Below are positions 10,676 through 26,172 of a DNA stretch of 64,000 nucleotides, in pieces. The notes below the pieces were generated by a model. It ran no database searches, was not told the DNA's origin, and saw only the letters and a list, made by a program, of their open reading frames with translations. The position numbers and the translations under genes are program-made. Each line of letters opens with the position of its first letter. Position 1 is the stretch's first letter. This DNA is from Candidatus Kaiserbacteria bacterium (lineage in GTDB: Bacteria > Patescibacteriota > Minisyncoccia > Phycocordibacterales > Phycocordibacteraceae): assembly GCA_027451665.1 (NCBI GenBank), contig DAIDIW010000002.1, positions 212,254 to 276,253 on the forward strand, in the 5' to 3' direction.

Positions 10676-10949
10676 TCATTGCTGCCGGCATTCACTCATC
10701 GAGCAGCTCGCAACGGTCCTTCGGAAAGCAGAATTACTCCGAAGTCGTATATCTCAGCCCGCACCGGTCATCTCAATGTCACAAAGAGCGCAGTTGGGTT
10801 TCTGTGTGTGGACAGCCTGCATGGTAAATTTGATGAGGATGTCTGTGTGCCAATACTTAGCCTAATTGCTGAGATTTTGTACCGGCATCTTTGGAACTTG
10901 TCCGATTCCCTATGGGAATCATCGGAATAGCTGCATAAGGAGAGTGAAT

Positions 10950-11126
10950 ATGCCTACTAACGAGGGTCGTGCGCAAAAGAAAGGTCGCGATATCGGGTTC
11001 ACGTTCACGGAGGTCGGGACGATTACTTTTCCTAATGGGCAGACGGTGCCCAAGCTCGAAGGTCACCCGAACGATCCAGAAGCCCATCGCCGTCTCATGG
11101 AGCTAATCGAGAGTGAAGAAAACTAG
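10950..11126 (+). CDS. small hypothetical protein (58 aa)
   Basis: RBS AAGGAG 8 nt upstream of ATG 10950. A terminator follows. Sequence MPTNEGRAQKKGRDIGFTFTEVG. Confidence 0.4.
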   Translation: MPTNEGRAQKKGRDIGFTFTEVGTITFPNGQTVPKLEGHPNDPEAHRRLMELIESEEN

Positions 11127-11200: not shown

Positions 11201-11245
11201 GCTAGGCAGCACTTTATGACGTGGTGTCATAAAGTGCTGCCTAGC
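11201..11245. repeat. perfect 20-bp inverted repeat with a 5-bp spacer
   Basis: gctaggcagcactttatgac gtggt gtcataaagtgctgcctagc. It lies between a small gene and an IS256 transposase remnant. Confidence 0.6.
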
Positions 11246-11360: not shown

Positions 11361-11597
11361 TCAGGCGATGATCGAGGCGCAGCAGCACGCGCGGCAGTCG
11401 GGAGACGCCTCCATGCCGTAGATCTCGCGCAGATGCTCGCAGATCTCCCGCGTGCTCATGCCCCGGCCGTACATCGAGATGATCTTCTCATCAAAGCCCG
11501 GAAACCGGCGCTGATATTTGGCGATCAGCTGGGGATCAAAACGCCCCTCCCGGTCCCGCGACACCGCGATGTCCACCTTGCCCGTACTGGTGGTCAC
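11361..11597 (-). mobile_element. IS256-family transposase internal fragment (pseudogene remnant)
   Basis: DREGRFDPQLIAKYQRRFPGFDEKIISMYGRGMSTREICEHLREIYGMEASP matches the conserved IS256/mutator transposase core (DR.G.F.P.L..K.Q.R....D.I...Y..G.STR.I...L...YG...SP). Both the N- and C-terminal parts are missing. Confidence 0.65.
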
Positions 11598-11975: not shown

Positions 11976-12020
11976 GCATCTGACCTTCGCCGAGAAGCGC
12001 TCCTCTGGAGGACGTGACAG

Positions 12021-12425
12021 ATGAGCGAGTTTCAATCGGGCGTCACCGCACAAGACAAATACAAAACACTCAAAGACGGCACAGTCGCCAAGTACATCTA
12101 CTACGGCTGTACACGATCGAAGGACATACACTGTAAAGGTGGGTACCTCGAAGAAAAAGTACTGCTCGCCCAGTTGTTAGAGATAATTGAAAAGCTGGAT
12201 CTTGATAAGACCGGCATGCGTCGTCAACTCGAGACTGAGATTGAGCGACATAAGGAGTTCAACGCAAGAATCCTTGGTCGTAAAGACGACTACCGAGCCA
12301 AGGATGTTGATATACGAAACTACGCAAAATATATTCTTGAGAATGGGACTGTCTTTGAAAAAAGAAGTCTCCTAGATTGTTTGAAGACTAAGATAATTCT
12401 GAAAAATAAAACTATTAGTACCTGA
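12021..12425 (+). pseudogene. C-terminal fragment of a large serine recombinase (zinc-ribbon + coiled-coil region only)
   Basis: GTVAKYIYYGCTRSKDIHCKGGYLEEKVLLAQLLEIIEKL parallels GGVAHYTYYHCTKRKNPNCSQHSIEETKLEKQIAKELGKL in the intact recombinase at 23394-25031. It lacks the catalytic N-terminal domain and has its own GGAGG RBS. Confidence 0.55.
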
Positions 12426-12430
12426 TGGGA

Positions 12431-14203
12431 TTAGATGATAGACGACAAATTATCAAGGTTGACTCCACTAAGGGCAGATCCTGAGCCGCTTGGCGGTTCA
12501 GCTATTATGACTTTCTTGCCCTCTCCAAAACCAAGAGTGTAGGTGAATTTTCCTTCTTCGTAACTCATGCAATCTGGCAATAAAGTATCTTTCATTAGTT
12601 CTTCGTTCACCATTTTCTCGCCTGCATCGAGAAGTGGTTTTAGGTCAATGTAAAGCAATCTCCTCATTCTCTCTGCTTGTTCGCCGATCCATCCTTGTTT
12701 TTGGTTTCCGCCTGAAGCAAGATAAAACCCAATAAAGATCAGGTATGAACGCAACGCTGCGGGATAGTAACGTCTAATCACATTTGTGCCGATTTGTTCC
12801 CACATCCTTTTCTCGAATGGAGCACGATACCCTTCTTTTAACTGCGGGTCGTATATCATGCCGTGCAATAACTTTTGAACCGTGTGGTATGTATCATTGG
12901 ATTTCTTAATATAGGAAAGCTGATACATGCACTTGTATAAAGCAGCCGCAACACCTTCATTGATCGCTAAATCAGAATAGAAATTTGGCTCTTGGGCGGT
13001 TTTCTCTCGAGCGACGGTGTCGGTATTAAAGGTCTGATCGTTAGCAAGGTACAGATATCCATGCCCAAGGAAGTCTGCAATGATGCCCAAAGACCACCAC
13101 TCATCTTTTAGAGCATACTTTGTGTCTATTCCCCGCCTTTCTTCGATGTTTAGCTTTATACAGATATCAGCAAAAATATCGGCCAAATATTCAAAGCCAT
13201 TATTTATATGTCTTGGAGGAATTGCGCCTGTTTTCAAGTACGTTTCGATTGCTTCGGAAAGAGCCTTGATCAGCACTTCGATACCAGCGATACCAGTGTC
13301 CTTACGTTTAGCATGGCCAAGCGTTGGATAACCAAACAAATCAAAGTTAGTTAGCAGGATCGGAGATTTAAATACGGCCGTGTACACATTCGAAGAAAGA
13401 GCCAGCCCTTTATTGTCCAATTGTTTGTAGAAAAACGATTCATCATCATAGAAAAGACTGCTCATGAGCCTTGGAACTCCTATTCCTGATTGGCGCCGGC
13501 TTATACGATAATGCTCTATCGCGCCGAAAATATACAGGAGGCCGTCAAGGCGTTTTGTTGTTAGAAGGCGAACGATAGACTCATCACTTAAAACTACCTC
13601 GATGATTGAGATTGCATCTCCACTGAAGTCAGCCGATTTTGGATCGCGATTAACAGCGGCCTTGCAGACGGCGTCGAAATTTCTCAATAAAACCTCTAAA
13701 AGCGCGTTTAAACTCTCTTCGGTTGATCTAGAGATTTCTTGAACCATTACTTCATAGAATTTCCGAGATGTCTTTCTATTGAAAAGGCCTCGAGTCCTGC
13801 TTGCAAGGAACAACAAAGAAATGGGTGACGCGATGAAAAACAAATAAGCTAGGAGTTCATAGAAAAGAGTAAAATTCAGCGGGTAAGGCAAATACATCTC
13901 TGGGAATTGCGTGATGAGCACTCCAAGGAGAGTAAGAAAAAGTCCCATTCCTCCAAACACCCAAAACAGATTCCGTTCCCAGACGCTTCGAATTCTCAAA
14001 GCTATGTCCCACTTTGATCTTCTGAGCTGGTATACAGCAAAAATGAGACCGAAAGCAGCAAGGGCGGCTCCAAGATCAAGAGAGGATGGGAAGATGACTA
14101 TGTTGCCAGCACCACAAATAGGCTGAGAAGAGAAACTCAAGAGACAAGAGTGCAGGCCTGTACTGGATGCTTGTGTTAAGGTCGATATTTGAGTTTGGGA
14201 CAT
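12431..14203 (-). CDS. hypothetical 590-aa protein with three N-terminal TM helices and a large soluble domain
   Basis: GC is ~38-40% versus ~65% for the core. TM helices at ~45-65, ~85-105 and ~115-140. No recognisable motif in the ~440-aa C-terminal part. Confidence 0.55.
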   Translation of the reverse strand: MSQTQISTLTQASSTGLHSCLLSFSSQPICGAGNIVIFPSSLDLGAALAAFGLIFAVYQLRRSKWDIALRIRSVWERNLFWVFGGMGLFLTLLGVLITQFPEMYLPYPLNFTLFYELLAYLFFIASPISLLFLASRTRGLFNRKTSRKFYEVMVQEISRSTEESLNALLEVLLRNFDAVCKAAVNRDPKSADFSGDAISIIEVVLSDESIVRLLTTKRLDGLLYIFGAIEHYRISRRQSGIGVPRLMSSLFYDDESFFYKQLDNKGLALSSNVYTAVFKSPILLTNFDLFGYPTLGHAKRKDTGIAGIEVLIKALSEAIETYLKTGAIPPRHINNGFEYLADIFADICIKLNIEERRGIDTKYALKDEWWSLGIIADFLGHGYLYLANDQTFNTDTVAREKTAQEPNFYSDLAINEGVAAALYKCMYQLSYIKKSNDTYHTVQKLLHGMIYDPQLKEGYRAPFEKRMWEQIGTNVIRRYYPAALRSYLIFIGFYLASGGNQKQGWIGEQAERMRRLLYIDLKPLLDAGEKMVNEELMKDTLLPDCMSYEEGKFTYTLGFGEGKKVIIAEPPSGSGSALSGVNLDNLSSII

Positions 14204-14398
14204 CGTACCTCTGAATGATAGACCTTCTCACCGAAGAAGGCCAAGAATCAAGTATTGATCCCTCTAGGGCGTTCGAGAAGAAAACTAGTGGGCTGCGGGG
14301 CTTGGACGATGTTAGAACTGTCCTTTTGACTGGTAAATCGCATTTCGCATATAAAATCACCATACCAGATTTGTTAGCGCGGGTGTAAACTGCGACGG

Positions 14399-14878
14399 AT
14401 GGACGACCTCTCCAACTACGAAAAGCTCCGCGCGGACGCGCAGCAGTTCTATAACGGCTTACGCCCCGTATTCTCGCCCGCGCTCAATGAGAATGTTCAC
14501 TTCACCGCCGAGGGCTTCAATCACATTATTTTCAAGGGGTCGCGTCGGGAGCGCGAGAAGCCCTCACAGATAATGCGCTTCAAAATGCTGGCGCGAGCGG
14601 CCAAGCTCATTGGCCTCTCCACCACATATCAGGAGTACGAGGAAACGCTACATGATTTTGAGGTCAAGAGCCACAAGAAACGCGTCCGCAAATCCAAACC
14701 CGTAAAGTATTGGGGTATCATCGCTATCATTGATGGACGCAAGATAAAGGTTATCGTGCGTAAAATCGGCGATAACGGGCAGCTTCACTTCTGGAGTGTA
14801 GTGCCCGCGTGGACGACAAACAAATACCGCGACGCCAAGTTCATCACCACGATGAAGGGCGACCCCGAGGAGGATTAG
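14399..14878 (+). CDS. hypothetical protein
   Basis: 159-aa ORF with no recognisable motif. It lies in the island between the AT-rich TM protein and the nucleotidyltransferase. Confidence 0.4.
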   Translation: MDDLSNYEKLRADAQQFYNGLRPVFSPALNENVHFTAEGFNHIIFKGSRREREKPSQIMRFKMLARAAKLIGLSTTYQEYEETLHDFEVKSHKKRVRKSKPVKYWGIIAIIDGRKIKVIVRKIGDNGQLHFWSVVPAWTTNKYRDAKFITTMKGDPEED

Positions 14879-15081
14879 GCATATCAAAAAACACCACACG
14901 GGGTGGTGCTCTTTGATATGCCTGCCTTCGGCTTATGTATTAGCCGAATAGGGCTGACGCCCCACAGGCACGGAACTAGTATACCAGATTGGAGTGAAGC
15001 GGCAATGAGCTGGGGATTTCAAGCCTCGAGCCAAAAGCTTCAAGTTTACTCTTTCAGAAAGTCGTCCCCGAGAGGTATTAT

Positions 15082-15618
15082 TTGCGAATGGAAGCAACAT
15101 CGACGCTTGAACTCGCGAGCAGACTACTTGATTGGAAAGACTTGCTCTTGGCGGGATATTGGCTCGTTGGCGCTACTATTGTTGGCGTTTTGTTTCTCTG
15201 GTTCGTTTTTCGAAAACAGTGGCGCTTTTTCAAAAACATAAATAAACCCATCATCTTCATAAACCTGTCCGGTATAAGCGATGGGATGGACGTTGAAGCG
15301 AAGCTATTGCAGCGCAGTCGCTTCTTTTGTACACCGGAGGTTACGAGCGATTGTAGAAGCATCGACTTGGTCGAAAAGCAGAGCTTGGTCGTAATTGGTG
15401 TTAGCGATGCCACCGACGTGAAGCAGTTTGAGGCAATTTACCAAAAAATCGCTACACTCACGAAGCCGACTGTCATTTACACTCTAGGCGCACGTGGAAC
15501 CAGTTTCGTATCGAAAAGCGAGGCTCTCATAAAGGGATATTCTTTCCACACCATCGCCACGACGCCATTGCGTTTGGTAAGCGACATCTTCGCAATACTC
15601 TCTACATTCCCAGAATAA
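15082..15618 (+). CDS. hypothetical membrane-anchored protein (N-terminal TM + ~130-aa alpha/beta domain)
   Basis: TTG at 15082 or ATG at 15088. TM WLVGATIVGVLFLWFVF. Alternating beta/alpha pattern PIIFINLSGISDG...LVVIGVSDATDV...PTVIYTLGARGTSF, Rossmann-like. Its stop is 3 nt from the stop of the convergent nucleotidyltransferase gene. Confidence 0.4.
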   Translation: MRMEATSTLELASRLLDWKDLLLAGYWLVGATIVGVLFLWFVFRKQWRFFKNINKPIIFINLSGISDGMDVEAKLLQRSRFFCTPEVTSDCRSIDLVEKQSLVVIGVSDATDVKQFEAIYQKIATLTKPTVIYTLGARGTSFVSKSEALIKGYSFHTIATTPLRLVSDIFAILSTFPE

Positions 15619-15621
15619 GGG

Positions 15622-16398
15622 TCAGACGACCACTTGGTTCCAGTTGGTGCAACGAAGAGAAGCGGCAGCGGCATTTGCCACCAGACGCTTCTCGAGTGGG
15701 CTAAGCACGTCCGAAACAGCGTTGCTTCTATTCCCCGGGTCATATACTGTTGCAGTCTCGAAGTCGTCCCGCAAATATTCCAAGAAAGAAACAAATCGCT
15801 TCGAAATGGGTAAAAGAAGACCGAGTGGCATCGAGGCGTTCATGGCTGATAGCTCAAGGTAAAACGATGGAAAATCTAAATGGTGCTGGTCGCGCCAGAT
15901 TTTTGTGAGCTTCATTAAATCAGTCCGACCGGATTTCTTCACGGCCTCTATCTGCATACTCACGTTCGTCTTCACCCAAGTATTCTTTTTCCTCACGTAT
16001 ATCGAATGGTCGTTAGCGAGAAAAGCGCCACTTTGTAGCTTCCCGGGCACGAGGTCGACTTCTATAGCCCCGTAAGTGAGACCTATCGAAGAGTTTTGAA
16101 AGCGAGGTGAGTGACCGTTTGCCATCAAGAAGCTATGCAGGCTTTTATGGACATCGTTGAAGGTATAGGGAAGACCGGTTTTTAGGGAGATAAAAAGGTC
16201 TAAGTCAGCCGACCCTTTTATAGCAGTGCCCTTTGCATTAGAGCCAGAGAGTTGCACATAGTTTAGGTATGAGCCAGTCCATGCGCGTATGACCCTTTCG
16301 AGTTCGGACTGTGCATTACCCAAAGCAAACAGTCTCCGCAAATCAGTGGAAACCGAGTGACGCGTCAAGACGGAGTTTAGGTACGGGTCTGGGTTCAC
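15622..16398 (-). CDS. Pol-beta-superfamily nucleotidyltransferase of the cGAS/DncV-like (CD-NTase/SMODS/OAS-like) type, 258 aa, probable GTG start
   Basis: hG[GS]-x9-13-[DE]h[DE]h motif: SGSNAKGTAIKGSADLDLFISL. Third acidic residue in the OAS/CD-NTase-like [ED]VDLVP context: GAIEVDLVPGK. C-terminal helical domain with LMKLTKIWRDQHHLDFPSFYLELSAM, resembling the CD-NTase/OAS K.W....PSS..LE motif. GC ~47%. Confidence 0.6.
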   Translation of the reverse strand: MNPDPYLNSVLTRHSVSTDLRRLFALGNAQSELERVIRAWTGSYLNYVQLSGSNAKGTAIKGSADLDLFISLKTGLPYTFNDVHKSLHSFLMANGHSPRFQNSSIGLTYGAIEVDLVPGKLQSGAFLANDHSIYVRKKNTWVKTNVSMQIEAVKKSGRTDLMKLTKIWRDQHHLDFPSFYLELSAMNASMPLGLLLPISKRFVSFLEYLRDDFETATVYDPGNRSNAVSDVLSPLEKRLVANAAAASLRCTNWNQVVV

Positions 16399-16431
16399 TA
16401 GGGTATTTTACCTCGTCGAGCACACAAAAGC

Positions 16432-17124
16432 CTAGAAGAACTTCAAAAACTCCTTGGTACGCTGTTCTTGTGGGTTTGAGATAAGCTTCTTGTCGCCGCG
16501 CTCAATGACCGCGCCGCCATCCATAAAGACGATATGGTCGCTGACGCGCTTGGCGAAGTTGATGAGGTGGCTGACTAGGAGTATGCCTACGCCCGAAGCT
16601 CGGAGTTTCTCAAGTAACGCCGCAACACGCTCTATCTGCTCAATATCCAAGGCCGAAGTAATCTCGTCAAGCAGAAGATATTTTGGTTTGAGCGCGATTG
16701 CTCGTGCGACTGCCGCACGCTGACGCTGACCAAGAGAGGTCTGATTAGGATAGCGGTCAATAAACGCTTCCATCCCGAGGGCTGCGACCAGCTCTGCAAT
16801 TTCGTCTTTAGTTGAGAGTTTTGCTAGAGTAATGTTCTGCCACAGCGTTAGATGAGGCCATAGGAATAGCTGCTGGAACACCATCGCCACGCGTGGCGAG
16901 GGGTGAGAGAGAACCTTGTCGTCCACCCGCACCTCTCCACTATCAGGAGCGTCCACCCCCGAAAGCACATTGAGCAGGGTGGTTTTGCCCGCGCCGCTCG
17001 GCCCGATAAGCGATACGATGCTGCTCGGCTCAATGGAAATATCTATGCTGTTCAAAATCAACCGTCCATCGCGCTTCTTTCCTATGTTGTGTGCGGTCAG
17101 CATACTAGCGTTCGGAGAAATCAC
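16432..17124 (-). CDS. ABC transporter ATP-binding protein (polar amino acid type)
   Basis: Walker A GPSGAGKTT, signature LSGGQRQRAAVARA, Walker B LLLDE. Confidence 0.85.
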   Translation of the reverse strand: MISPNASMLTAHNIGKKRDGRLILNSIDISIEPSSIVSLIGPSGAGKTTLLNVLSGVDAPDSGEVRVDDKVLSHPSPRVAMVFQQLFLWPHLTLWQNITLAKLSTKDEIAELVAALGMEAFIDRYPNQTSLGQRQRAAVARAIALKPKYLLLDEITSALDIEQIERVAALLEKLRASGVGILLVSHLINFAKRVSDHIVFMDGGAVIERGDKKLISNPQEQRTKEFLKFF

Positions 17125-17767
17125 GAGTAAATCGCTCTCTCAAAACGTAGGCAAGATAGTAGAGCGGTGCAAGCACGAGCATAAAGAATATCGCGAGCGT
17201 AGTGTAAATCTCTACGGGTCGGTAGAGAACGGCATTGAGGTTCTGTGCTACGCGGAAAATCTCGGGAACCGAAATCAAGCTGGCGAACAGGGTAGCTTGC
17301 AAAATAAACAACTGCGTCGTGAGAACAGACGGGATGATTTGACGAAAAATCATCGGGAACTGGATGCGTCTGAAGATGTCGTTACTGGATAGCCCTGCCA
17401 TTTGTGCCGCGACGATGTACTGCTTCGGGAAGTCGGTGAGCACTCCTCTCACCAGTTCTGCGATAGCCGCGATGTTCACGATTGCGAGGGTGAGCACGGC
17501 CGTCAGGAACGGGCTAATCAAAATGCCGAGAAGCGACTGGAATGGATAGTAAAACCAGAACAGGAGAACGAGCAGCGGGATACCCGCCACAATGAACGAG
17601 GCCGTTTTGACCACCGCCCCTGCGGTTGGATTTCTCGCGCCCAGCACCCCAAACCCTGCGCCAAGGACAATACCGAGAACGGATACCGACAAGAACAGCT
17701 CAACGCTTACCAAGAGGCCTCCGAGAAGCGTTGGGTAGTAGTTCACCAGTATGCCGAGAACGGACAT
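17105..17767 (-). CDS. ABC transporter permease (His/Glu/Gln/Arg/opine family)
   Basis: Multi-TM, EAA-like region, overlaps the ATPase gene by 20 nt. Confidence 0.8.
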   Translation of the reverse strand: MSVLGILVNYYPTLLGGLLVSVELFLSVSVLGIVLGAGFGVLGARNPTAGAVVKTASFIVAGIPLLVLLFWFYYPFQSLLGILISPFLTAVLTLAIVNIAAIAELVRGVLTDFPKQYIVAAQMAGLSSNDIFRRIQFPMIFRQIIPSVLTTQLFILQATLFASLISVPEIFRVAQNLNAVLYRPVEIYTTLAIFFMLVLAPLYYLAYVLRERFTRDFSER

Positions 17768-17772
17768 TGTTG

Positions 17773-18630
17773 TTATTGCGCGTAGGGCGTTGCGGGCAGG
17801 AGATACGAATTAGATGAGGACTGATACTTGGCGACGATTTTTGCGACTGCGCCATCGTCTATGGCCTCTTGAAGCGCGACATTGAGCATCTGTTCCAAGC
17901 TACTTTCGCCAAGCGCAACCGCGTAGGCGTTTCCATAAAGGCGGAGTGGTGGAGTTTGGAGCTGACGCAGGGTGCCTGGGTTTGCTTGCAAGAACTCGGC
18001 GGCAGCATCGGGTTGTAAGAACGCAACATCGGCCTTGTTATCAATCACTTGGAGCGGGATTTGGTCAAAGGGCGCAGTCTGCGGCAGGCTGACCTGCTGC
18101 GCTTTTGGGTAATCCGATTGGGCGATTACTTGGCCGAGTTCACCGTCCTGTGTTGAGATTTTCACCGATGGGTCATTTATTGCCGCGAGATTGTTGTCAA
18201 AGCGATGGTCGCTTGTTCGCACATAGGCGTAGACGCCATTGTAGAACGCAGGGATGGTGAGATAGCCCGCCTTAGCGCGTGTGGAGTTAGCCCACAGACC
18301 GCCGCCAAACACATCGTAGCGACCTGCCGAAAGGTCGGTAAAAATCGTGCCGTATCCTGCCTCCTCAACCCACTGCACTTTCAAGCCGAGCTGTGCGGCA
18401 AGCGTGTTAGTGAGGTCATAGAAGATGCCCGAGAGCGCCCCTGTTTTCGGGTCTTGGATAACATACGGCGGATACGGGATGTAGCCAACGCGCATCGTGC
18501 CTGAGGAAATCACCTTGTTGAAGGCGGTATTTGAGGCAGTGGTTCCTTGCGAGCTATGGGTAAAGAGACCGACTACAATCGCAATAACGGCGAGGCCGAT
18601 AGCGATGTAGGAAAGGGTTTTATTTTCCAT
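17773..18630 (-). CDS. ABC transporter substrate-binding protein (family 3, amino acid)
   Basis: Signal/TM anchor then GTMRVGYIPYPPY...LSGIFYDL...AGRYDV. The start was chosen at MENKTLS (ATG 18630) to avoid overlap with the upstream gene. Confidence 0.75.
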   Translation of the reverse strand: MENKTLSYIAIGLAVIAIVVGLFTHSSQGTTASNTAFNKVISSGTMRVGYIPYPPYVIQDPKTGALSGIFYDLTNTLAAQLGLKVQWVEEAGYGTIFTDLSAGRYDVFGGGLWANSTRAKAGYLTIPAFYNGVYAYVRTSDHRFDNNLAAINDPSVKISTQDGELGQVIAQSDYPKAQQVSLPQTAPFDQIPLQVIDNKADVAFLQPDAAAEFLQANPGTLRQLQTPPLRLYGNAYAVALGESSLEQMLNVALQEAIDDGAVAKIVAKYQSSSNSYLLPATPYAQ

Positions 18631-18643
18631 ACAAAATATTGTA

Positions 18644-19336
18644 TCACCCCACTTGTGGTGCAGTAGCAAAGACAATGATTTCAGATGGCACCTCCACTAC
18701 CTCGGCCGAGTAGCCCTTCTCGGCAAGGAAGCTCTGTATCGTAGCGAGATACTTTTCGGGAAGATGTGGGTCAATGCCTTGCGAGGCGTAGTCATACATT
18801 CCCTTCACCAATCCGCCCTCAATGTTGTAGCCGTTGGAGATGGAGTAGATGACGAACGACCTCGCGACGCGCACGCTTTCTTCAAGCGCCTGTCGGGTAT
18901 CAAGGTTGGAGGCGTGGATTGCCCGCATAGAAACATATCCGTCGAAACTCTTATCGGGGAACGGCAGATGCTGGATGTCGCCGTGGACGACGCGGACTTC
19001 GGGATGCTTCTCGGAAATCTTTCCGAGCGCCGTATCGCTCAAATCCAGTGCAGTGATTTCAAAGTCCTTGAAGAACGGGATTTCAGCACCGCTATTTGCG
19101 CCAGCGATAAGGACTGACGGCCGTCCTGCACCCTGCACTGACGGCAGCACCTTCTCGACAAGCGCAGTCAGGGCGTCATCAAACTTGTGCTCGGTATCGA
19201 GTGCCCGCGCATCTTTTGCATACTCAAAATCGCCGTATTTCTCATTGAGCCGCGCGACCAGTTCGGGCAGTTTGTCTGACCGATTTGCTTGCGAGATTTG
19301 AGGGGCGGGGTTCTTCTGAAACCAGTTCCAGCGCAT
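18644..19336 (-). CDS. class I SAM-dependent methyltransferase
   Basis: VLIAGANSGAEIPFF...LDLSDTAL...VHGDIQHLPFPDKSFD (motifs I/II/III). Confidence 0.7.
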   Translation of the reverse strand: MRWNWFQKNPAPQISQANRSDKLPELVARLNEKYGDFEYAKDARALDTEHKFDDALTALVEKVLPSVQGAGRPSVLIAGANSGAEIPFFKDFEITALDLSDTALGKISEKHPEVRVVHGDIQHLPFPDKSFDGYVSMRAIHASNLDTRQALEESVRVARSFVIYSISNGYNIEGGLVKGMYDYASQGIDPHLPEKYLATIQSFLAEKGYSAEVVEVPSEIIVFATAPQVG

Positions 19337-19360
19337 ATTACATTCGTATTTATGAAAGTG

Positions 19361-19840
19361 TCAGTCAATGAACCCACCGTGGTATGTGGCACGGTAAAGA
19401 GATTTACCGTTAAGTGAAATCTCCTCCGCGCCGCCGAAACGGTCAAGCTCGCCGTCTACGGCATTGCGATAAAGCCAGCCACCTTCCTGATGCACGGAAG
19501 GGCCGCGCACGGGAATTACGCTGCCGTGTGGTTGCATCAATGCCTTGCGCAGAAAATTGTAAACCTCCTTCTCGCTCGTGGCAGGGTCAAGGATGTAGCC
19601 GTAATAGTTCATCCCCCACACAGGCGTACCGCTCTTGTAGACAATCTCTCCACCGATGAAATCCCGTCCGCCGAAATAAGTGTCGTGGTAGGTGAGGTTG
19701 CCCTGCTCAAAGTGATAATCATCGGAGCGCGGGCGTGATGAAGGGGCTTTAGCGGCGTCCTTATTGGCGTAGGTGCTTTTGTTAGCGGCATCCAAGAAAC
19801 GCGTGAGTTCTTGAAGGTCAAGGGGGTTTGCGGCATCCAT
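19361..19840 (-). CDS. hypothetical protein
   Basis: 159 aa with no recognisable motif. Confidence 0.45.
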   Translation of the reverse strand: MDAANPLDLQELTRFLDAANKSTYANKDAAKAPSSRPRSDDYHFEQGNLTYHDTYFGGRDFIGGEIVYKSGTPVWGMNYYGYILDPATSEKEVYNFLRKALMQPHGSVIPVRGPSVHQEGGWLYRNAVDGELDRFGGAEEISLNGKSLYRATYHGGFID

Positions 19841-19869
19841 AACACCACTTTACCACCACCCGTCGTTTT

Positions 19870-20430
19870 TTATTTACCGAGGTCTACGAGCACTGTGCCA
19901 CCTCCCCAAATGCTGCCGTTGTACTGGAACTGCAAGCCCGTAGCGGTCTTGGGTATTTCAAACCCAACCCAGCCCGTGCGTTTGCTGTTAGCGATAATTG
20001 CGCCGTCTAGCGAGCTGCTCGGGTTTGACAGTTCCTTATCCGTAGCTGTTACCTGATAGCTATTGCCCTGCGCATCGCGGACGAACATCTGCCCTAGCGT
20101 TGTAACGTACTGCTGTGAGGATGACGTGTTTTGGATAGTTATGTTGAGGTCAAGCCACTCGTTGCCCGCGCTCGGAGAAGTAAACTGCCCACCGTCCGAA
20201 TAGCTGACACTGTTGACGGTGATGACCGAGCTGCCGAGCTGGATTTGGTCGCCGACCTTGTAAGTCGTCTGCGCCGTCTGTTGCGCAGGCGCTGCGGCGA
20301 TGCCATTGCTCCCGACCTTCTCGCTTGAAGGCGAGCTGCTCGCGCCGATGATTATGAGTACCACGAGAACCAAGCCCCAGAACCACCATCGTTTATAAAA
20401 CTTCTTCTTTGCTCCTTGTTGATTTTCCAT
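19870..20430 (-). CDS. membrane-anchored DUF4352-like (Ig-like beta-sandwich) protein
   Basis: N-terminal TM WWFWGLVLVVLIIIGA then YKVGDQIQLGSSVITVNSV...EWLDLNITIQN...GWVGFEIP. Confidence 0.5.
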   Translation of the reverse strand: MENQQGAKKKFYKRWWFWGLVLVVLIIIGASSSPSSEKVGSNGIAAAPAQQTAQTTYKVGDQIQLGSSVITVNSVSYSDGGQFTSPSAGNEWLDLNITIQNTSSSQQYVTTLGQMFVRDAQGNSYQVTATDKELSNPSSSLDGAIIANSKRTGWVGFEIPKTATGLQFQYNGSIWGGGTVLVDLGK

Positions 20431-20703
20431 ACGAGCGGCTAATGGATAAATCCAAGGGCGGGTACAGGAAACCCGCCACTAGGAAGGCCTTGCGGCCTCT
20501 ATAGGAGTTTCCCCCTATAACGCGATGAACGCCCTAATGACGGGTTTGCTAGGTTCATCGCGATTTTTGACCATACCTTGCGGCAGAGCGCCACTAGGGT
20601 TAGGTCAGCATCAACCTTTACCGGCTGACGGGTACCATCTTAACACGTCAAAACTCGGCTTTGAAAACAGCTCGAGGAAGCGTAGATTTGAGGCAAAGAT
20701 TCA

Positions 20704-21447
20704 ATGAACCCCGAACAGAAAATCAAGCACGAAATCTGGCTCGTATTACAGCAGCTCAAAGAGGACTATCTGCTTACACCCGAGAATAACTACGCGGTCT
20801 ACGAAATCGCACAAGCCCGCGAGCACCCTAACTTCCCAACGCTTCATAATCAACTCAAAATCCTAAAGAAGCTAGAGCACGATGGAGCACTCAAGATAGT
20901 GCGCAGCTACTACGTAACTCGACGTGGCACGAGCCTCGCGGACGCAGTTGATTTTGGTATGTACCACGACGCAGACCCGAAAGGTATTTTGCTTGGTGTG
21001 CTGTTTCCGAGGTTTGATGAGCTATATGCCGAGTATTCGCAATACAGCGCCGAACCGATAACGCCTGAGATTGAGACAAAAAAGTACGTCATTGAGCTCA
21101 AAGACCGAGGGGTTTGGGTCAATGAATTTCTATTGAGCAGGCCGCACGCTACCGGTAAGAATATGGGCTTCTTTGAGTACGTGTTTGAGCATCCCGACAA
21201 ACTCATCTCACGCGATAGTTTGCCGAAGTTCGTACAACAGGACGTAGCCGCCCGCAGTTTTTCCAAGGTGCTCAATGACCTCGGCTTCAAGGGTGAGATA
21301 CTCAAGGTATTCTTCCCCGAACGGGGTAAAAGTCAGCTGCGGTTCAGAAAGGAAGTCACCTTGAGCCAGCTCGCTAAAAGCGGCATAAATACCGACTTGC
21401 TATTACAGGAGCTACGCCTCGCGCATTTGAAGAGCAGTCCGAAATAG
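20704..21447 (+). CDS. hypothetical protein (possible N-terminal winged-helix)
   Basis: 247 aa. It is the first of five co-directional genes ending in the serine recombinase. Confidence 0.45.
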   Translation: MNPEQKIKHEIWLVLQQLKEDYLLTPENNYAVYEIAQAREHPNFPTLHNQLKILKKLEHDGALKIVRSYYVTRRGTSLADAVDFGMYHDADPKGILLGVLFPRFDELYAEYSQYSAEPITPEIETKKYVIELKDRGVWVNEFLLSRPHATGKNMGFFEYVFEHPDKLISRDSLPKFVQQDVAARSFSKVLNDLGFKGEILKVFFPERGKSQLRFRKEVTLSQLAKSGINTDLLLQELRLAHLKSSPK

Positions 21448-21516
21448 TCCGAAGTCATCCAGTTCAATCCGGAAACCAAGACCGCTTTATTTCAACGACC
21501 ATACTGCCAAGACAGT

Positions 21517-21702
21517 ATGGTCGTTTCTGATGCCCACATCGCCGAGTTCCAAAAACTCTACAGGGAGCATTTTGGCATTGAACTCCCGAAAGCGCAAGCG
21601 CTTGAGAAGAGCATCCGTCTCGTCCGTCTGATTGAAACCGTCAGCCGCGCTCTTGCAAAGGAGCAGGCCGAAATCCCTACCAACCTAATACCACCAACAT
21701 AA
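21517..21702 (+). CDS. small hypothetical protein
   Basis: 61-aa ORF directly abutting the next ORF (stop/start 21702/21704). Confidence 0.3.
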   Translation: MVVSDAHIAEFQKLYREHFGIELPKAQALEKSIRLVRLIETVSRALAKEQAEIPTNLIPPT

Positions 21703-21703
21703 T

Positions 21704-22063
21704 ATGGAAACGCGTGATGATACCCAGCCTGCAACCGAAGAAGATATGAAAGCAACCTTTAAGAGCAGCGAGTGGCAGAAGTTAAAGGTTCTCATTGATG
21801 AGACAGAACAGCAAATGGAAGCGATGAACCTCGTCCCACTCAATAAGGGCGGTGAACAATATATCCGCGACCGCTACCCAATCGCCGTGCTCTATCACCG
21901 AGCTTATCTTCAAGATGTTGCGATGACCGAGTGCAATACGATGCTCACAGAAGAAGAAATCCAAAATATAGGATGCTCCTTCTTTGACGACTTTCCGGAT
22001 GAAATTTGGCTTGCGATTATCGAAGCAGTGAAGTTGGTCGTCAGCGAGCGCAATTCCTCTTGA
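21704..22063 (+). CDS. hypothetical protein
   Basis: 119-aa acidic protein, co-directional. Confidence 0.35.
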   Translation: METRDDTQPATEEDMKATFKSSEWQKLKVLIDETEQQMEAMNLVPLNKGGEQYIRDRYPIAVLYHRAYLQDVAMTECNTMLTEEEIQNIGCSFFDDFPDEIWLAIIEAVKLVVSERNSS

Positions 22064-22112
22064 GCTGCCTCGCAGGGTTCCTTGAAAAACACCGACAACA
22101 ACGAAAACAGCT

Positions 22113-23279
22113 ATGGATACCGTCATCATCAAACTCAATGGGTTCAAAGTCGCCAACATCTCGCTATTCCTGCCAGAACTCAATAAGCGTCGTTTCCAAG
22201 ACCTCTCGCCTACGGAGCGGCAGTCAACGCGTACTTACCTCCGTGCGTTTCGCTTTGAACCACCACACCAAGACGCGTACCTGCCAAAAATAGAGGTTTA
22301 CGAGGCACTGAATGATGACCGTAACGAGCTAACCTACACACTCCAAGCGAGGTTCTCTGTCCCGAAGCTCCTCTACGGCAACAGCGTGCAGGAGGTGAAC
22401 GATAACGACCTTGAACGCGTCATCTATGCTTTTACGAAGGCGCTAACAGGAGCAGGCATTGTCGTCAGTAGCACGACCGTCGCTAATGCTCGCGTTTCGC
22501 AGGTGGACTTCTGCAAAAATATAATCCTGCCACGCGACATACGGATGCAGGAGGTCTTGACCGAGTTGCAGCGCACAGATATCAGCAAAGCGATTGATAT
22601 GACCCAGAAGGAGTACAAGCACGGTGGCCGTACTCTCCACATTTATTCGCAAACCGTGGAGCGTGTCTTTTACGACAAGGTGAACGACGCCACGCGGCCC
22701 AAGGGCAAACGCAAGGATAAAGGGCATATTGAGCGCGAACGCGAAGTGATAGACCGCTATGGGTTAGCGAACCGCGAGATTTTCCGCTACGAGTATCGCT
22801 TGAAGAAAAATCAGGCCGTGAAGCAGAAAGTGAACGCCGCACTTAGGCGACCGTATCCAACAGTCGTTCAACTCAAAGACCTTTTCACGCCCAACCTTTG
22901 CAAAACGATTTTATTGCAATCGTGGCGCGACCTCATCCAACGCCCCGAGAACCAGCTCGCACTTCTCGGCCCAAAGGACGACCTTGCGCTCCTGCAGCAC
23001 ATAATGGGTGGAGCGCGTGAGCAGGGCGCGGTACACAGTATGAACCGTGCTTTCACCTCCTACGGCCTTACACGCGCCATACGCGACCACGGAGCAAAAG
23101 AAGTGCGTAAGGCAGCTGCGGGTTGGAACGCCAACCACGGCGAGCGCCTTACCAAGAAAATGAGAGTTGCGGCCGCACTTACCGAAGGGCTGCCGTATTC
23201 AAATAGTATCGCCGTTGTGTCTGCGTCACTTGAGCAGTTTGAGTACATTTCCCTTTCAACACTTGAAAATGTGGTATAA
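22113..23279 (+). CDS. hypothetical protein, possibly a replication-initiator-like protein of the integrated element
   Basis: 388 aa, placed immediately upstream of the recombinase. The Rep call is from position and size only. No firm motif was recognised. Confidence 0.35.
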   Translation: MDTVIIKLNGFKVANISLFLPELNKRRFQDLSPTERQSTRTYLRAFRFEPPHQDAYLPKIEVYEALNDDRNELTYTLQARFSVPKLLYGNSVQEVNDNDLERVIYAFTKALTGAGIVVSSTTVANARVSQVDFCKNIILPRDIRMQEVLTELQRTDISKAIDMTQKEYKHGGRTLHIYSQTVERVFYDKVNDATRPKGKRKDKGHIEREREVIDRYGLANREIFRYEYRLKKNQAVKQKVNAALRRPYPTVVQLKDLFTPNLCKTILLQSWRDLIQRPENQLALLGPKDDLALLQHIMGGAREQGAVHSMNRAFTSYGLTRAIRDHGAKEVRKAAAGWNANHGERLTKKMRVAAALTEGLPYSNSIAVVSASLEQFEYISLSTLENVV

Positions 23280-23393
23280 TAAACTCGTTGACCCACTTGT
23301 GAGCCGTTTGTCGCCAGAGGTTTTATCATTTATAGATAGCGGGGCGAAAGGGGCGGTCTGCCACTATCTGTATTCCTCTGGTTTACGGCATAA

Positions 23394-25031
23394 GTGGGTC
23401 AACCAGACCGTCCCTTTTGCTATATGAAAACTCACCAAAAAATCAAATACTTCGCCTACCTCCGTAAGTCGTCGGAAGGAAAAGAAAAACAGGCGCTCTC
23501 CATTCCTGCGCAACGTGCCCAGCTTTCAGAGCGCTTCTCTGATTTAGATATTGAGTTTGTGGAAGAGGAACGTAGCGCTTTTCTGCCACTCAATCGGCCG
23601 AGGTTCAGCGATATGCTCCTGCGCGTCCGTAGTGGCGAGCGGCAAGGACTGCTCGCGTGGCATCCCGACCGCCTTTCTCGCAATGAGGTGGATGCGAGCG
23701 CGATTACTTATATGCTCCGCACGGGCGAACTCAAAGACCTCAAGTTTGCCACCTATCATTTTGAGAACAACTCGCCCGAGGGTATTTGGATGTTGCAAAT
23801 GGCACTCTCGCAGTCGCAATACGAGAGCGCGAAGAAGGGGCGCGATGTGAAGCGCGGTACCGCACAGAGCGCAAAGAGCGGTTTTTATCCCGCGCCAGCA
23901 CCTATCGGATACCTCAATGACAAGTTCACCGAGCGTGGAAAGAAAAAGAAGCGCCCCGACCCCGAGCGCTTTGCTCTCACACGCAGACTTTTTGACTTGA
24001 TGCTGACAGGCAACTATACGCCTCCGCAAATCCACGACATAGCCGTAAACGAGTGGGGCTTCCGTGGGCCGAAGGGCCGCAAACTTTCCCGCAGTAGTGT
24101 CTACAACATCTTCACTCGGCCGTTCTATTTCGGCGAGTTCGAGCATCCCGCAGGAAGCGGTATTTGGTATAAAGGCGACCACGAACCGATGATTACCCGC
24201 GAGGAATATGACCGTATCCAGTTCCTGCTTGGGCGTAAGGGTAACCCGCGACCGAAGGAACATAAAGACATCGCTTATCGCGGCCCCATGAAATGCGGCG
24301 AATGCGGAGCAGCGATTACCGCCGAGGAGAAGATGAAAAAGCTCGCCAAGGGCGGTGTCGCACACTATACCTACTACCACTGCACTAAGCGCAAGAACCC
24401 GAACTGCTCGCAGCATTCCATTGAGGAGACAAAGCTGGAAAAGCAAATCGCTAAGGAACTTGGGAAGCTCAAAATCCCCGCTGGCTTTACCGCGTGGGCG
24501 GTCGCGCGGCTGAAAGACCAGAACGCCAAAGAGATTACTGACCGCGAGGTGGTCTACAGCAATCAACGCAAGGAGTACGAGGCATGCGTCCGCAAGATAG
24601 ACAACCTGATTGATATGCGGGCAAACAGCGAGATTGACGAGCAGGAGTTCAGGAGCAGAAAGGAAACGCTTCTCGCCGAAAAGGAACGCACTCAAGCACT
24701 CCTGCTAGACACAGACAAGCGCGTAGAGAATTGGCTTGAGGTCGCAGAGCGCGGCTTCAATTTCGCAGAGAAAGCGCCAGCCGTATTCGCCAAGGCAGCG
24801 GCAGATGAGGACTTTGCGACCTGCAAGGAGATATTTACGGCTCTGGGTTCGAACTACACGCTCATAGACGGAAAGTTGAGCATTTCCTTGGATAATCTGC
24901 TGTTCCCGATACAGGAAATCGCGGATGCAATCTGCGACATTCCCTCTCCGTTAGAACTAGAGAAAAACAAAGGAGATGCAAAGGATTTCGGACAACTCTA
25001 CGCCGAAAATCCACGAGTGCTGGGGGACTAG
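23394..25031 (+). CDS. large serine recombinase (phage/ICE-type integrase)
   Basis: N-terminal resolvase catalytic motif YLRKSSEGKEKQALSIPAQ (Y.R.S....Q). Recombinase domain. Zinc ribbon (KCGECG...YYHCTKRKNPNC). Coiled coil. The stop codon overlaps the 3' end of tRNA-Gln. Confidence 0.8.
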   Translation: MGQPDRPFCYMKTHQKIKYFAYLRKSSEGKEKQALSIPAQRAQLSERFSDLDIEFVEEERSAFLPLNRPRFSDMLLRVRSGERQGLLAWHPDRLSRNEVDASAITYMLRTGELKDLKFATYHFENNSPEGIWMLQMALSQSQYESAKKGRDVKRGTAQSAKSGFYPAPAPIGYLNDKFTERGKKKKRPDPERFALTRRLFDLMLTGNYTPPQIHDIAVNEWGFRGPKGRKLSRSSVYNIFTRPFYFGEFEHPAGSGIWYKGDHEPMITREEYDRIQFLLGRKGNPRPKEHKDIAYRGPMKCGECGAAITAEEKMKKLAKGGVAHYTYYHCTKRKNPNCSQHSIEETKLEKQIAKELGKLKIPAGFTAWAVARLKDQNAKEITDREVVYSNQRKEYEACVRKIDNLIDMRANSEIDEQEFRSRKETLLAEKERTQALLLDTDKRVENWLEVAERGFNFAEKAPAVFAKAAADEDFATCKEIFTALGSNYTLIDGKLSISLDNLLFPIQEIADAICDIPSPLELEKNKGDAKDFGQLYAENPRVLGD

Positions 25032-25090
25032 GATTCGAACCTAGATTGACGGGACCAAAACCCGCTGTCCTACCATTAGACGATCCCCCA
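25020..25090 (-). tRNA. tRNA-Gln (anticodon TTG)
   Basis: The reverse complement folds as a cloverleaf: acceptor TGGGGGA/TCCCCCA, anticodon loop TTTTGGT, T-arm GGTTCGAATCC. It resembles E. coli tRNA-Gln. Confidence 0.8.
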
Positions 25091-26156: not shown

Positions 26157-26172
26157 TAGCCGACAGTATAGC

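What the first reader, a model, noticed from the sequence alone, without database searches (positions are those of the whole stretch)
12431..14203. Very AT-rich (~40% GC) 590-aa three-TM protein of unknown function, a candidate effector or abortive-infection protein
This is the most compositionally foreign gene in the window. It has three N-terminal TM helices and a ~440-aa soluble domain with no recognisable motif. It lies on the same strand as the NTase and ~1.4 kb downstream of it, and is immediately preceded (on its strand) by a recombinase fragment. Membrane proteins acquired on defence islands are frequently pore-forming or NAD/membrane-disrupting effectors.
Basis: inference. Interest (0 to 1): 0.6.

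Follow-up and report, generated by a model that had tools for sequence, protein, structure and literature searches.

The report
Restriction-linked membrane protein of Patescibacteria
The gene is real and belongs to an unnamed, well-conserved family of membrane-anchored proteins from ultra-small (CPR) bacteria that travels as a one-gene unit, usually behind restriction-modification genes or tail-to-tail with a DNA recombinase, so it is a good candidate for a new anti-phage protein but is not the partner of the neighbouring signalling enzyme.

Summary
Window 12431..14203 (-) is an intact 590-aa ORF at 43.1% GC, the lowest-GC stretch of the window, with three N-terminal TM helices and a roughly 450-aa acidic, all-alpha cytoplasmic domain. 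It has no hit in Pfam, NCBIfam, PHROGs or PADLOC, and no PDB or BFVD fold match despite a good model (pLDDT 82.8).

It belongs to an unnamed family of about 150 clusters at 50% identity, and the named sources are mostly Patescibacteria. Between related loci, DNA homology stops at the ORF borders. dN/dS is about 0.05.

In 15 of 31 well-covered contexts, restriction-modification (RM) genes lie within three genes. The gene is often the last one, 1-27 bp behind RM operons of unrelated types. In four contexts it lies tail-to-tail with a large serine recombinase that faces an RM operon. Here only a recombinase stub remains (12021..12425, +, same 42% GC).

A cyclase neighbour recurs in only one other context, where it has its own NucC effector. 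The window also carries a separate CBASS-type TM protein. The NTase-effector reading is therefore not supported.

Best reading: a stand-alone, RM-linked, membrane-anchored defence protein of a new family. The mechanism is inferred, not shown.

The parts
12431..14203 (-). Intact 590-aa CDS (stop codon 12431-12433), member of an unnamed membrane-protein family found mostly in Patescibacteria
   Evidence: ORF. It has 148 full-length homologues at 45-69% identity and 149 clusters at 50% identity. No family hit. AF2 pLDDT 82.8, pTM 0.79.
14081..14203 (-). Residues 1-41: variable N-terminal segment with no charged residues, predicted to be outside the cell; it carries two Cys that align with the conserved 'HCLF...YCNS' pattern of longer homologues
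   Evidence: Alignment A1. pLDDT below 50 for residues 1-40. K/R count of 0. The topology is inferred from the positive-inside rule.
13796..14080 (-). Residues 42-136: membrane anchor of three TM helices (42-60, 78-100, 113-136), with a basic amphipathic helix (63-77) in the first cytoplasmic loop
   Evidence: Hydropathy and charge counts. AF2 helices H44-59, H63-77, H79-98 and H112-135. G45 is nearly invariant across the whole family.
12434..13795 (-). Residues 137-590: cytoplasmic, acidic (pI about 5.1-6.5 across homologues), all-alpha domain of about 20 helices, followed by a beta-hairpin (546-566) and a conserved C-terminal tail (PPxGSxSALxGVDLE)
   Evidence: AF2 secondary structure. Alignment A1. 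pI values. No PDB or BFVD fold match and no PDB sequence match.
14215..14244 (-). Weak sigma-70-like promoter match (TTGGCC-18-TATCAT) with a GAGG Shine-Dalgarno-like motif before the ATG; a consensus match only
   Evidence: The number of promoter-like sites in the region is no higher than in shuffles, so this is only a plausible site.
12021..12425 (+). Stub of a large serine recombinase, convergent with the CDS and 5 nt beyond its stop; only the C-terminal zinc-ribbon/coiled-coil part is left and the catalytic domain is missing
   Evidence: tblastn gives 51% identity to residues 312-430 of the 444-aa Resolvase/Recombinase/Zn_ribbon_recom protein that lies tail-to-tail with the homologue in L002. 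GC is 0.422, like the CDS. The same tail-to-tail pair is intact in L002, L007, L008, L009 and L013.

Best explanation
The ORF encodes a stand-alone, membrane-anchored protein of a previously unnamed family whose named members are mostly from Patescibacteria (CPR). Shown: it has an N-terminal anchor of three TM helices (N-out, C-in by the positive-inside rule) and a large acidic all-alpha cytoplasmic domain with no detectable relative among known families or solved structures. It is under strong purifying selection. It behaves as a one-gene module, because homology between loci ends at the ORF borders. It is repeatedly found as the last gene behind mechanistically unrelated restriction-modification operons, or tail-to-tail with a large serine recombinase that in turn faces an RM operon. 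In this window the gene and a truncated recombinase, both 42-43% GC, form a decayed copy of that two-gene unit. The unit sits at the far edge of a 13-kb low-GC island integrated at tRNA-Gln. Inferred: the protein is an accessory anti-phage/anti-MGE factor that rides with first-line defences, as restriction-linked abortive-infection genes do. The cytoplasmic alpha-domain would act as a non-enzymatic sensor or interaction platform, since no invariant catalytic-type residues survive across the family. The TM helices would either carry out the effect by perturbing the membrane on activation, or hold the protein at the membrane where foreign DNA enters. It does not work as the effector of the neighbouring CD-NTase.
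For: Reality and conservation: (dN/dS 0.04-0.07). Architecture. No known family or fold. One-gene module: among L018, L032, L033, L034 and L039 the DNA is 76-87% identical only across the ORF (within about 35 nt of its ends; one extra 131-nt match in one pair), and both flanks are otherwise unrelated. RM linkage: Mod-Res-target with 4-5 bp gaps in L015, L016, L022 and L038, and with a 98-bp gap in L034. In L041 the order is Mod-Res, then a 219-aa ORF of unknown family, then the target. EcoRI-type MTase plus GmrSD_N-HNH, then target, in L044, L049 and L051; L030 shows the GmrSD_N-HNH gene but no MTase is visible. MTase plus MutH-like, then target, in L039. MmeI-type MTase/Fic/HsdS, then target, in L018. 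Target tail-to-tail with a serine recombinase that faces a type I or other RM operon in L002, L007, L008 and L009. RM-cluster genes make up 32 of 233 genes within three genes of the target against 6 of 274 farther away (odds ratio 7.1, p = 7e-7). They are present in 15 of 31 well-covered contexts. In 20 of 33 contexts with an upstream same-strand gene the gap is 27 bp or less. Serine recombinase near versus far: 11 of 233 against 3 of 274 (p = 0.015). Window-specific: the CDS and the recombinase stub share about 42-43% GC against 47-54% for the rest of the island. An integrase, tRNA-Gln and a Rep-like gene delimit the island. The family is absent from phage, plasmid and viral-contig collections, so it is a cellular island gene.
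Confidence: 0.45

Rival explanations
1. CBASS effector: the protein senses the cyclic nucleotide made by the CD-NTase at 15622..16398 and kills the cell through its TM helices.
For: It is on the same strand and 1.4 kb downstream of a cyclase (PADLOC Cyclase 1e-73). A 49%-identical cyclase also lies upstream of the homologue in L002. The window's cyclase has no co-directional effector, because its usual partner NucC is absent here.
Against: Only 2 of about 60 contexts have a cyclase. L002 has cyclase-NucC, a complete pair, before the target. The window has a dedicated CBASS-type TM protein (C3a59) whose homologues sit directly upstream of cyclases elsewhere. No SAVED-, STING- or CARF-like domain is detected in any of 73 members. 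Two opposite-strand genes intervene and the GC differs.
Confidence: 0.04
2. Dedicated RM accessory: the protein is not autonomous but works with restriction enzymes. For example, it might tether or regulate them at the membrane where phage or competence-imported DNA enters, or sense their inhibition as PrrC does with EcoprrI.
For: It takes the terminal position, with gaps of -4 to 27 bp, behind RM operons of several types. The serine-recombinase form also faces RM operons.
Against: The partner RM systems are mechanistically unrelated (types I, II, III, MmeI-like, GmrSD/HNH), which argues against a specific protein-protein partnership. Proteins 80-90% identical sit behind different RM systems. 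About half of the well-covered contexts, including this window, have no RM gene nearby.
Confidence: 0.15
3. Function of the recombinase element itself: the protein serves the serine-recombinase mobile unit, for example through exclusion of a second copy, addiction, or membrane-linked DNA transfer, rather than host defence.
For: The tail-to-tail pair, with an overlap of -20 to +13 nt, is conserved in five divergent loci plus the window. GC is shared in the window. Recombinases are enriched nearby (p = 0.015).
Against: Most contexts (about 50 of 60) have no recombinase. The gene is equally conserved when embedded in RM operons. No att repeats were found in the window.
Confidence: 0.1
4. Non-defence accessory membrane protein, for example for envelope function, host attachment or nutrient sensing in epibiotic CPR cells, that merely accumulates in variable islands.
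For: About half of the contexts lack recognisable defence genes. No toxic or nuclease-like motif is present. The window island also carries an amino-acid ABC transporter and other non-defence cargo.
Against: The gaps to RM operons are operon-like and the arrangement has been assembled repeatedly and independently with different RM types. The distribution is sporadic: 14 loci were found in a peptide-pattern scan of one genome for each of 185,579 species. GC is foreign.
Confidence: 0.2

Closest known systems
Restriction-linked abortive-infection genes (PrrC in the EcoprrI type Ic locus; RloC and other 'rlo' genes), cited from my own knowledge of the literature
   Same: An extra gene embedded in or appended to RM operons, co-oriented and probably co-transcribed, and carried with RM on mobile islands. 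Fic and AbiEii genes occupy the same loci here.
   Different: PrrC and RloC are soluble ABC-ATPase/anticodon-nuclease proteins tied to type I RM. This protein is membrane-anchored and all-alpha, has no ATPase or nuclease motif, and follows RM systems of many types. There is no sequence or fold similarity.
Single-gene membrane Abi / superinfection-exclusion proteins and TM effectors of CBASS (for example the PADLOC C3a59 class present at window 15082..15618)
   Same: N-terminal TM helices plus a cytoplasmic domain, residence in a defence island, and one-gene modularity.
   Different: There is no HMM match to any PADLOC model in any of 73 family members. The protein is much larger, with a roughly 450-aa helical domain, and it is not generally linked to cyclases.
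LdgA and DdgA, Patescibacteria-restricted defence proteins recovered by functional metagenomic selection (PMC12366544)
   Same: [quoted passage not shown]
   Different: Identity could not be tested, because the paper's sequences are not held. The libraries had inserts averaging 2 kb, which makes a 1.8-kb gene a less likely catch. This is a lead, not a match.
Alpha-solenoid proteins (importin-beta, CAND1, designed helical repeats)
   Same: They are the best Foldseek hits and share an all-alpha stacked-helix appearance.
   Different: TM-scores are only 0.1-0.28 and E is 0.046 or higher, so this is generic helical similarity with no implied homology.

Membership tests
CBASS effector | Conserved adjacency and co-orientation with a CD-NTase across homologues | tested here: not met
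   A cyclase lies within three genes in 2 of about 60 contexts, the window and one Nomurabacteria genome (L002-L004). In that genome NucC lies between the cyclase and the target.
CBASS effector | A cyclic-nucleotide sensor domain (SAVED, STING, Cap4/5-type and similar) or a match to a known TM-effector model | tested here: not met
   No Pfam or PADLOC hit for the protein or for 72 further family members.
Known anti-phage defence families (PADLOC-DB 2.0.0, 2023) | HMM match to a model of a known or candidate defence protein | tested here: not met
   Searches gave only two chance-level hits (E about 0.007-0.009) among the 73 members. Systems described after 2023 were not covered.
Restriction-linked Abi (PrrC/RloC type) | Gene embedded in or appended to an RM operon | tested here: met
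   RM genes are within three genes in 15 of 31 well-covered contexts, and gaps of -4 to 27 bp behind RM genes occur in L016, L018, L022, L030, L033, L039, L044, L049 and L051. This is not met in the window itself.
Restriction-linked Abi (PrrC/RloC type) | ABC-type ATPase domain plus anticodon-nuclease domain | tested here: not met
   No P-loop or nuclease family hit, and the fold is all-alpha.
HEPN / HD all-alpha nucleases or hydrolases | Invariant Rx4-6H (HEPN) or H...HD...D (HD) motif | tested here: not met
   The 'FLGHDY' motif is GHGY in the window protein, GHTY in P0064 and GHEY in P0081. Across 73 members the invariant or near-invariant residues are M1, G45, S256, Y259, G266, F278, F378, N474, P481, L542 and P543.
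Integral membrane protein | Hydrophobic helices of about 19 or more residues, with charge distribution obeying the positive-inside rule | tested here: met
   Three segments at 42-60, 78-100 and 113-136, with K/R counts of 0/6/0/7 and AF2 helices at the same places. There is no experimental topology.
Large serine recombinase (for the flanking fragment 12021..12425) | N-terminal catalytic resolvase domain with the active-site serine | tested here: not met
   Only residues 312-430 of the L002 recombinase are matched, and there is no Pfam Resolvase hit. It is a truncated remnant.
LdgA / DdgA (PMC12366544) | Sequence similarity to the published proteins | not testable with these tools
   The sequences are not in the held text and no supplements are held.

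The most novel reading that the evidence does not exclude
This would be a new-fold, CPR-specific 'universal second layer'. It would be a membrane-anchored protein selected to be co-transcribed with mechanistically unrelated first-line systems (type I, II, III, MmeI-like and GmrSD/HNH restriction, and CBASS). It would act either as a general infection-triggered membrane effector or as a platform at the DNA-entry site of bacteria that depend on DNA uptake. The gene would move as a one-gene cassette, sometimes driven by its own large serine recombinase.
Probability: 0.25. Interest if true: 0.75.

Novelty: new variant of a known kind. Interest (0 to 1): 0.5.

Why it matters
Few defence systems have been identified in Patescibacteria genomes and, as of that paper, only one Patescibacteria phage had been described (PMC12366544). 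A conserved, structurally novel membrane protein that has repeatedly been placed behind unrelated RM systems would be a concrete new candidate for CPR immunity, and it would illustrate how accessory layers are bolted onto restriction systems. It is also directly testable: it is one gene of about 1.8 kb, with natural partner operons available for co-expression. For this window specifically, the analysis removes a tempting but wrong link to the adjacent CD-NTase.

Tried and rejected
- Family searches of the protein (Pfam, NCBIfam, PHROGs, PADLOC) found nothing above noise. The only hit was Caa3_CtaG at E = 0.022, in the TM region.
- Pfam and PADLOC scans of 73 diverse members also found nothing.
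- Profile searches against PDB sequences with A1 and A2 returned only TM-segment or designed-repeat noise.
- Foldseek against PDB and BFVD gave no hit with E of 0.001 or better.
- tblastn against the phage and plasmid collections, and a scan of IMG/VR viral contigs, found no relative.
- A search for att-type repeats of the tRNA-Gln 3' end, or other island-bounding repeats, found none that was convincing.
- A tblastn search for a NucC remnant in the window found none.
- I considered the HD-hydrolase idea from 'FLGHDY' and rejected it, because the D is not conserved.
- I considered a DNA-binding role and rejected it, because the soluble domain is acidic.
- I considered the 159-aa ORF upstream as a partner, since it has a homologue upstream of the target in L052. 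I rejected it because that family is a very widespread, highly conserved 159-aa gene often found on about 1-kb contigs and beside an IS110 transposase.
- PADLOC and Pfam scans of short-gap upstream neighbours of unknown function (L025, L029, L032, L036, L040, L041, L055) found nothing. They may be orphan restriction enzymes, but this is unproven.
- An exact look-up of the window protein's own contig found it not on record, and cluster names were empty, so the host genome could not be named.

Full report

Window 12431..14203 (- strand) holds an ATG-initiated ORF of 590 codons. Its GC is 0.431, as is its GC3, against 0.571 for the window. The lowest-GC 1.77-kb stretch of the whole window falls at 12.1-14.0 kb. 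A GAGG motif and a weak promoter-like match lie just upstream.

Hydropathy analysis finds three hydrophobic segments, at residues 42-60, 78-100 and 113-136. The K/R counts are 0, 6, 0 and 7 for the N-terminus, loop 1, loop 2 and the stretch after TM3. This predicts an N-out, C-in topology with the large domain in the cytoplasm. That topology is an inference from the positive-inside rule.

The recombinase fragment (12021..12425) is on the + strand and is convergent, lying 5 nt past the stop codon. Two opposite-strand genes lie between this ORF and the NTase at 15622..16398.

**2. What is the protein?**

It matches no Pfam, NCBIfam, PHROG or PADLOC family. It is nonetheless far from an orphan.

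- 148 proteins match it at 45-69% identity over essentially the full length. All that carry a name are called 'hypothetical', and the named sources are almost all Patescibacteria: Paceibacterota, Parcubacteria, Nomurabacteria and others.
- An exhaustive HMMER scan of 1.84 billion cluster representatives finds 149 clusters at 50% identity. Nearly all are 530-630 aa with end-to-end matches and no informative domain fusions.
- A peptide-pattern scan of one genome for each of 185,579 species found only 14 loci. Twelve carry CPR or unnamed labels, one is Eremiobacterota, and one is a 4.9-kb contig binned as Gammaproteobacteria. The family is therefore a sporadic accessory gene.
- No relative was found in phage, plasmid or viral-contig collections.

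An AF2 model built on 28 homologues is confident (pLDDT 82.8, pTM 0.79). It shows three TM helices, about 20 further helices, a short beta-hairpin (546-566) and a conserved C-terminal tail. Foldseek finds nothing in the PDB or BFVD beyond generic alpha-solenoid resemblance (TM-scores 0.1-0.28). Profile searches against PDB sequences find nothing meaningful.

Across 73 diverse members the invariant or near-invariant residues are M1, G45, S256, Y259, G266, F278, F378, N474, P481, L542 and P543. The 'GHDY' motif is not conserved, and the window protein has GHGY. No member hits any Pfam or PADLOC model. The soluble domain is acidic (pI about 5.1-6.5). I infer that the domain is not a conventional enzyme or DNA binder. 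Closer relatives show dN/dS of 0.04-0.07, so the protein is functional.

**3. Genomic context elsewhere**

I collected 71 loci carrying a homologue of the gene, called ORFs and clustered all neighbours by BLASTP. I then annotated the recurrent clusters. Three patterns emerge.

- **The gene is often the last gene of an operon-like array.** In 20 of 33 contexts that have an upstream same-strand gene, the gap is 27 bp or less.
- **The upstream genes are RM systems of unrelated types.**
  - Type III Mod-Res lies directly upstream in L015, L016, L022 and L038 (gaps of 4-5 bp) and L034 (98 bp). In L041 a 219-aa ORF of unknown family sits between Res and the target. The L015 Res matches PADLOC REase_III at 3e-87.
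  - An EcoRI-type methylase plus a GmrSD_N-HNH protein is found in L044, L049 and L051; L030 shows the GmrSD_N-HNH gene without a visible methylase.
  - A methylase plus a MutH-like nuclease is found in L039.
  - An MmeI-type methylase, Fic and HsdS are found in L018.
  - Methylases plus an unknown 467-aa protein are found in L032, and a methylase fragment overlaps the target start by 4 nt in L033.
- **In L002, L007, L008, L009 and L013 the gene lies tail-to-tail with an intact large serine recombinase.** The overlap ranges from -20 to +13 nt. In four of these loci the recombinase faces a type I or other RM operon.

RM-cluster genes make up 32 of 233 genes within three genes of the target, against 6 of 274 farther away (odds ratio 7.1, p = 7e-7). 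Recombinases make up 11 of 233 against 3 of 274 (p = 0.015). Among the 31 contexts with at least four visible neighbours, 15 have RM genes and 17 have either RM genes or a recombinase. One caveat applies: the RM clusters were annotated mainly because they lay near the target, so the contrast is somewhat inflated.

The most telling result is that loci whose target proteins are 80-90% identical (L018, L032, L033, L034, L039) share DNA homology (76-87% identity) only across the ORF, to within about 35 nt of its ends. One pair also shares a separate 131-nt segment. Otherwise both flanks are unrelated, with different RM systems upstream. The gene is therefore a self-contained cassette that has been joined to different defence operons repeatedly.

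**4. The window locus**

GC is depressed from about 12 to 25 kb. At the far end, a full-length serine integrase (23394..25031) overlaps the 3' end of tRNA-Gln (25019..25090). Next to it lies a Phage_CRI-like replication protein (22113..23279). The gene studied here and the recombinase stub sit at the other end of this island, next to an IS256-family transposase fragment (11361..11597).

The stub matches only residues 312-430 of the L002 recombinase (51% identity). It shares the 42-43% GC of the gene, while the rest of the island is 47-54% GC. I read this as a decayed, now immobile copy of the 'target tail-to-tail with recombinase' unit. No att repeats were found.

**5. The NTase question**

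The cyclase at 15622..16398 is a full-length match to a PADLOC CBASS cyclase model (1e-73). L002 carries a 49%-identical cyclase upstream of its target homologue. There the cyclase is followed by NucC (PADLOC 2e-74), so that CBASS is already complete.

In the window, the 178-aa TM protein at 15082..15618 matches a CBASS TM-effector model (C3a59, 1.5e-11). Its homologues lie 1-3 nt upstream of SMODS+AGS_C cyclases.

No other context of the 590-aa family has a cyclase, and no nucleotide-sensor domain is detectable. I therefore reject the effector reading (probability about 0.04). It cannot be excluded entirely, because the window's CBASS looks mosaic and its cyclase has no co-directional effector.

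**6. Mechanism**

- **Shown:** membrane anchor plus a cytoplasmic helical domain; one-gene modularity; purifying selection; preferential placement behind RM operons and beside serine recombinases; absence from phages and plasmids.
- **Inferred, best explanation (confidence 0.45):** an autonomous accessory defence protein that travels with first-line systems. The cytoplasmic domain would sense an infection cue. The TM region would either execute the response by perturbing the membrane, in an abortive-infection style, or position the protein at the DNA entry site.
- **Rivals:** an RM-dependent accessory (0.15), a function serving the recombinase element (0.10), an unrelated membrane function hitch-hiking in islands (0.20), and a CBASS effector (0.04).

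**7. Comparison with known systems, and novelty**

It behaves like restriction-linked Abi genes such as PrrC and RloC (my own knowledge) in where it sits. It shares none of their domains, so it is not a member of that family. It resembles single-gene membrane Abi and TM effectors in architecture, but it matches no model.

A 2025 functional-metagenomics paper validated two Patescibacteria-restricted defence proteins without known homology, LdgA and DdgA (PMC12366544).

I rate the finding as a new variant of a known kind: a new family, probably with a new fold, in a familiar genomic role. Interest is 0.5. It is a solid, testable candidate with an unusually clear association pattern, but it has no demonstrated function and no surprising mechanism yet.

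Noticed in passing
window 15082-15618 (+) and 15622-16398 (-): The CBASS next door looks like two mismatched halves. The 178-aa TM protein (PADLOC C3a59) has homologues that lie 1-3 nt upstream of, and co-directional with, a 448-459-aa SMODS+AGS_C cyclase (L072, L074). Here it is tail-to-tail (3-nt gap) with a short 258-aa cyclase whose 49%-identical relative in L002 is paired with NucC. It may be a recombined or broken system.
   Followed up: partly
window 14399-14878 (+), hairpin 14877-14923: This 159-aa ORF belongs to a very widespread, very conserved family: 623 hits, the listed ones 71-94% identical and nearly all 159 aa. Many hits are on contigs of about 1 kb, and in a Kaiserbacteria genome the gene lies beside an IS110 transposase. 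It has a weak LPD3 similarity and is followed by a 21-nt inverted repeat. It looks like an unrecognised small mobile or selfish gene of CPR bacteria. A homologue also lies upstream of the target in L052.
   Followed up: partly
window ~12000-25090: This is a 13-kb lower-GC island (0.43-0.54 against about 0.58-0.60). At its far end a serine integrase (23394-25031) has its 3' end overlapping tRNA-Gln (25019-25090). The island also carries a Phage_CRI/G2P-like replication protein (22113-23279), DUF5680, DUF4352, a methyltransferase and an amino-acid ABC transporter (16432-18675). No att repeats were found.
   Followed up: partly
L072 1-9256: A contig from another genome has the same Dus-DnaX gene pair as window 25113-27147. 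There the pair is followed by a methyltransferase and a different island with a TM-effector-SMODS/AGS_C CBASS and a serine recombinase. The locus may be a recurrent integration hotspot.
   Followed up: no
window 11361-11597 (-): A 78-aa fragment of an IS256/Mutator-family transposase (Pfam 5e-20, profile positions 70-136 of 379) lies at the edge of the island. It is a second sign of decay at this end.
   Followed up: no
window 11201-11245: A perfect 20-nt inverted repeat with a 5-nt loop lies downstream of the small ORF 10866-11126. It may be a terminator or a mobile-element end.
   Followed up: no
L001 7429-8004: In one genome a 191-aa CYTH-domain protein (triphosphate tunnel metalloenzyme / class IV cyclase fold) overlaps the start of the target homologue by 4 nt. 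A PIF1-type helicase follows it, and NERD and UvrD genes are nearby.
   Followed up: no
window 12434-12520 (-) (residues ~562-590) and alignment A1: The extreme C-terminus carries a conserved tail motif (PPxGSxSALxGVDLE) after the beta-hairpin. It could be a docking peptide, a cleavage site or a degron.
   Followed up: no
L025, L029, L032, L036, L040, L041, L055 (genes immediately upstream of the target homologue): Several ORFs of 219-467 aa with short or negative gaps to the target have no Pfam or PADLOC match. In L032 such an ORF follows two methylases, and in L041 one follows Mod-Res, so these may be orphan restriction endonucleases.
   Followed up: partly
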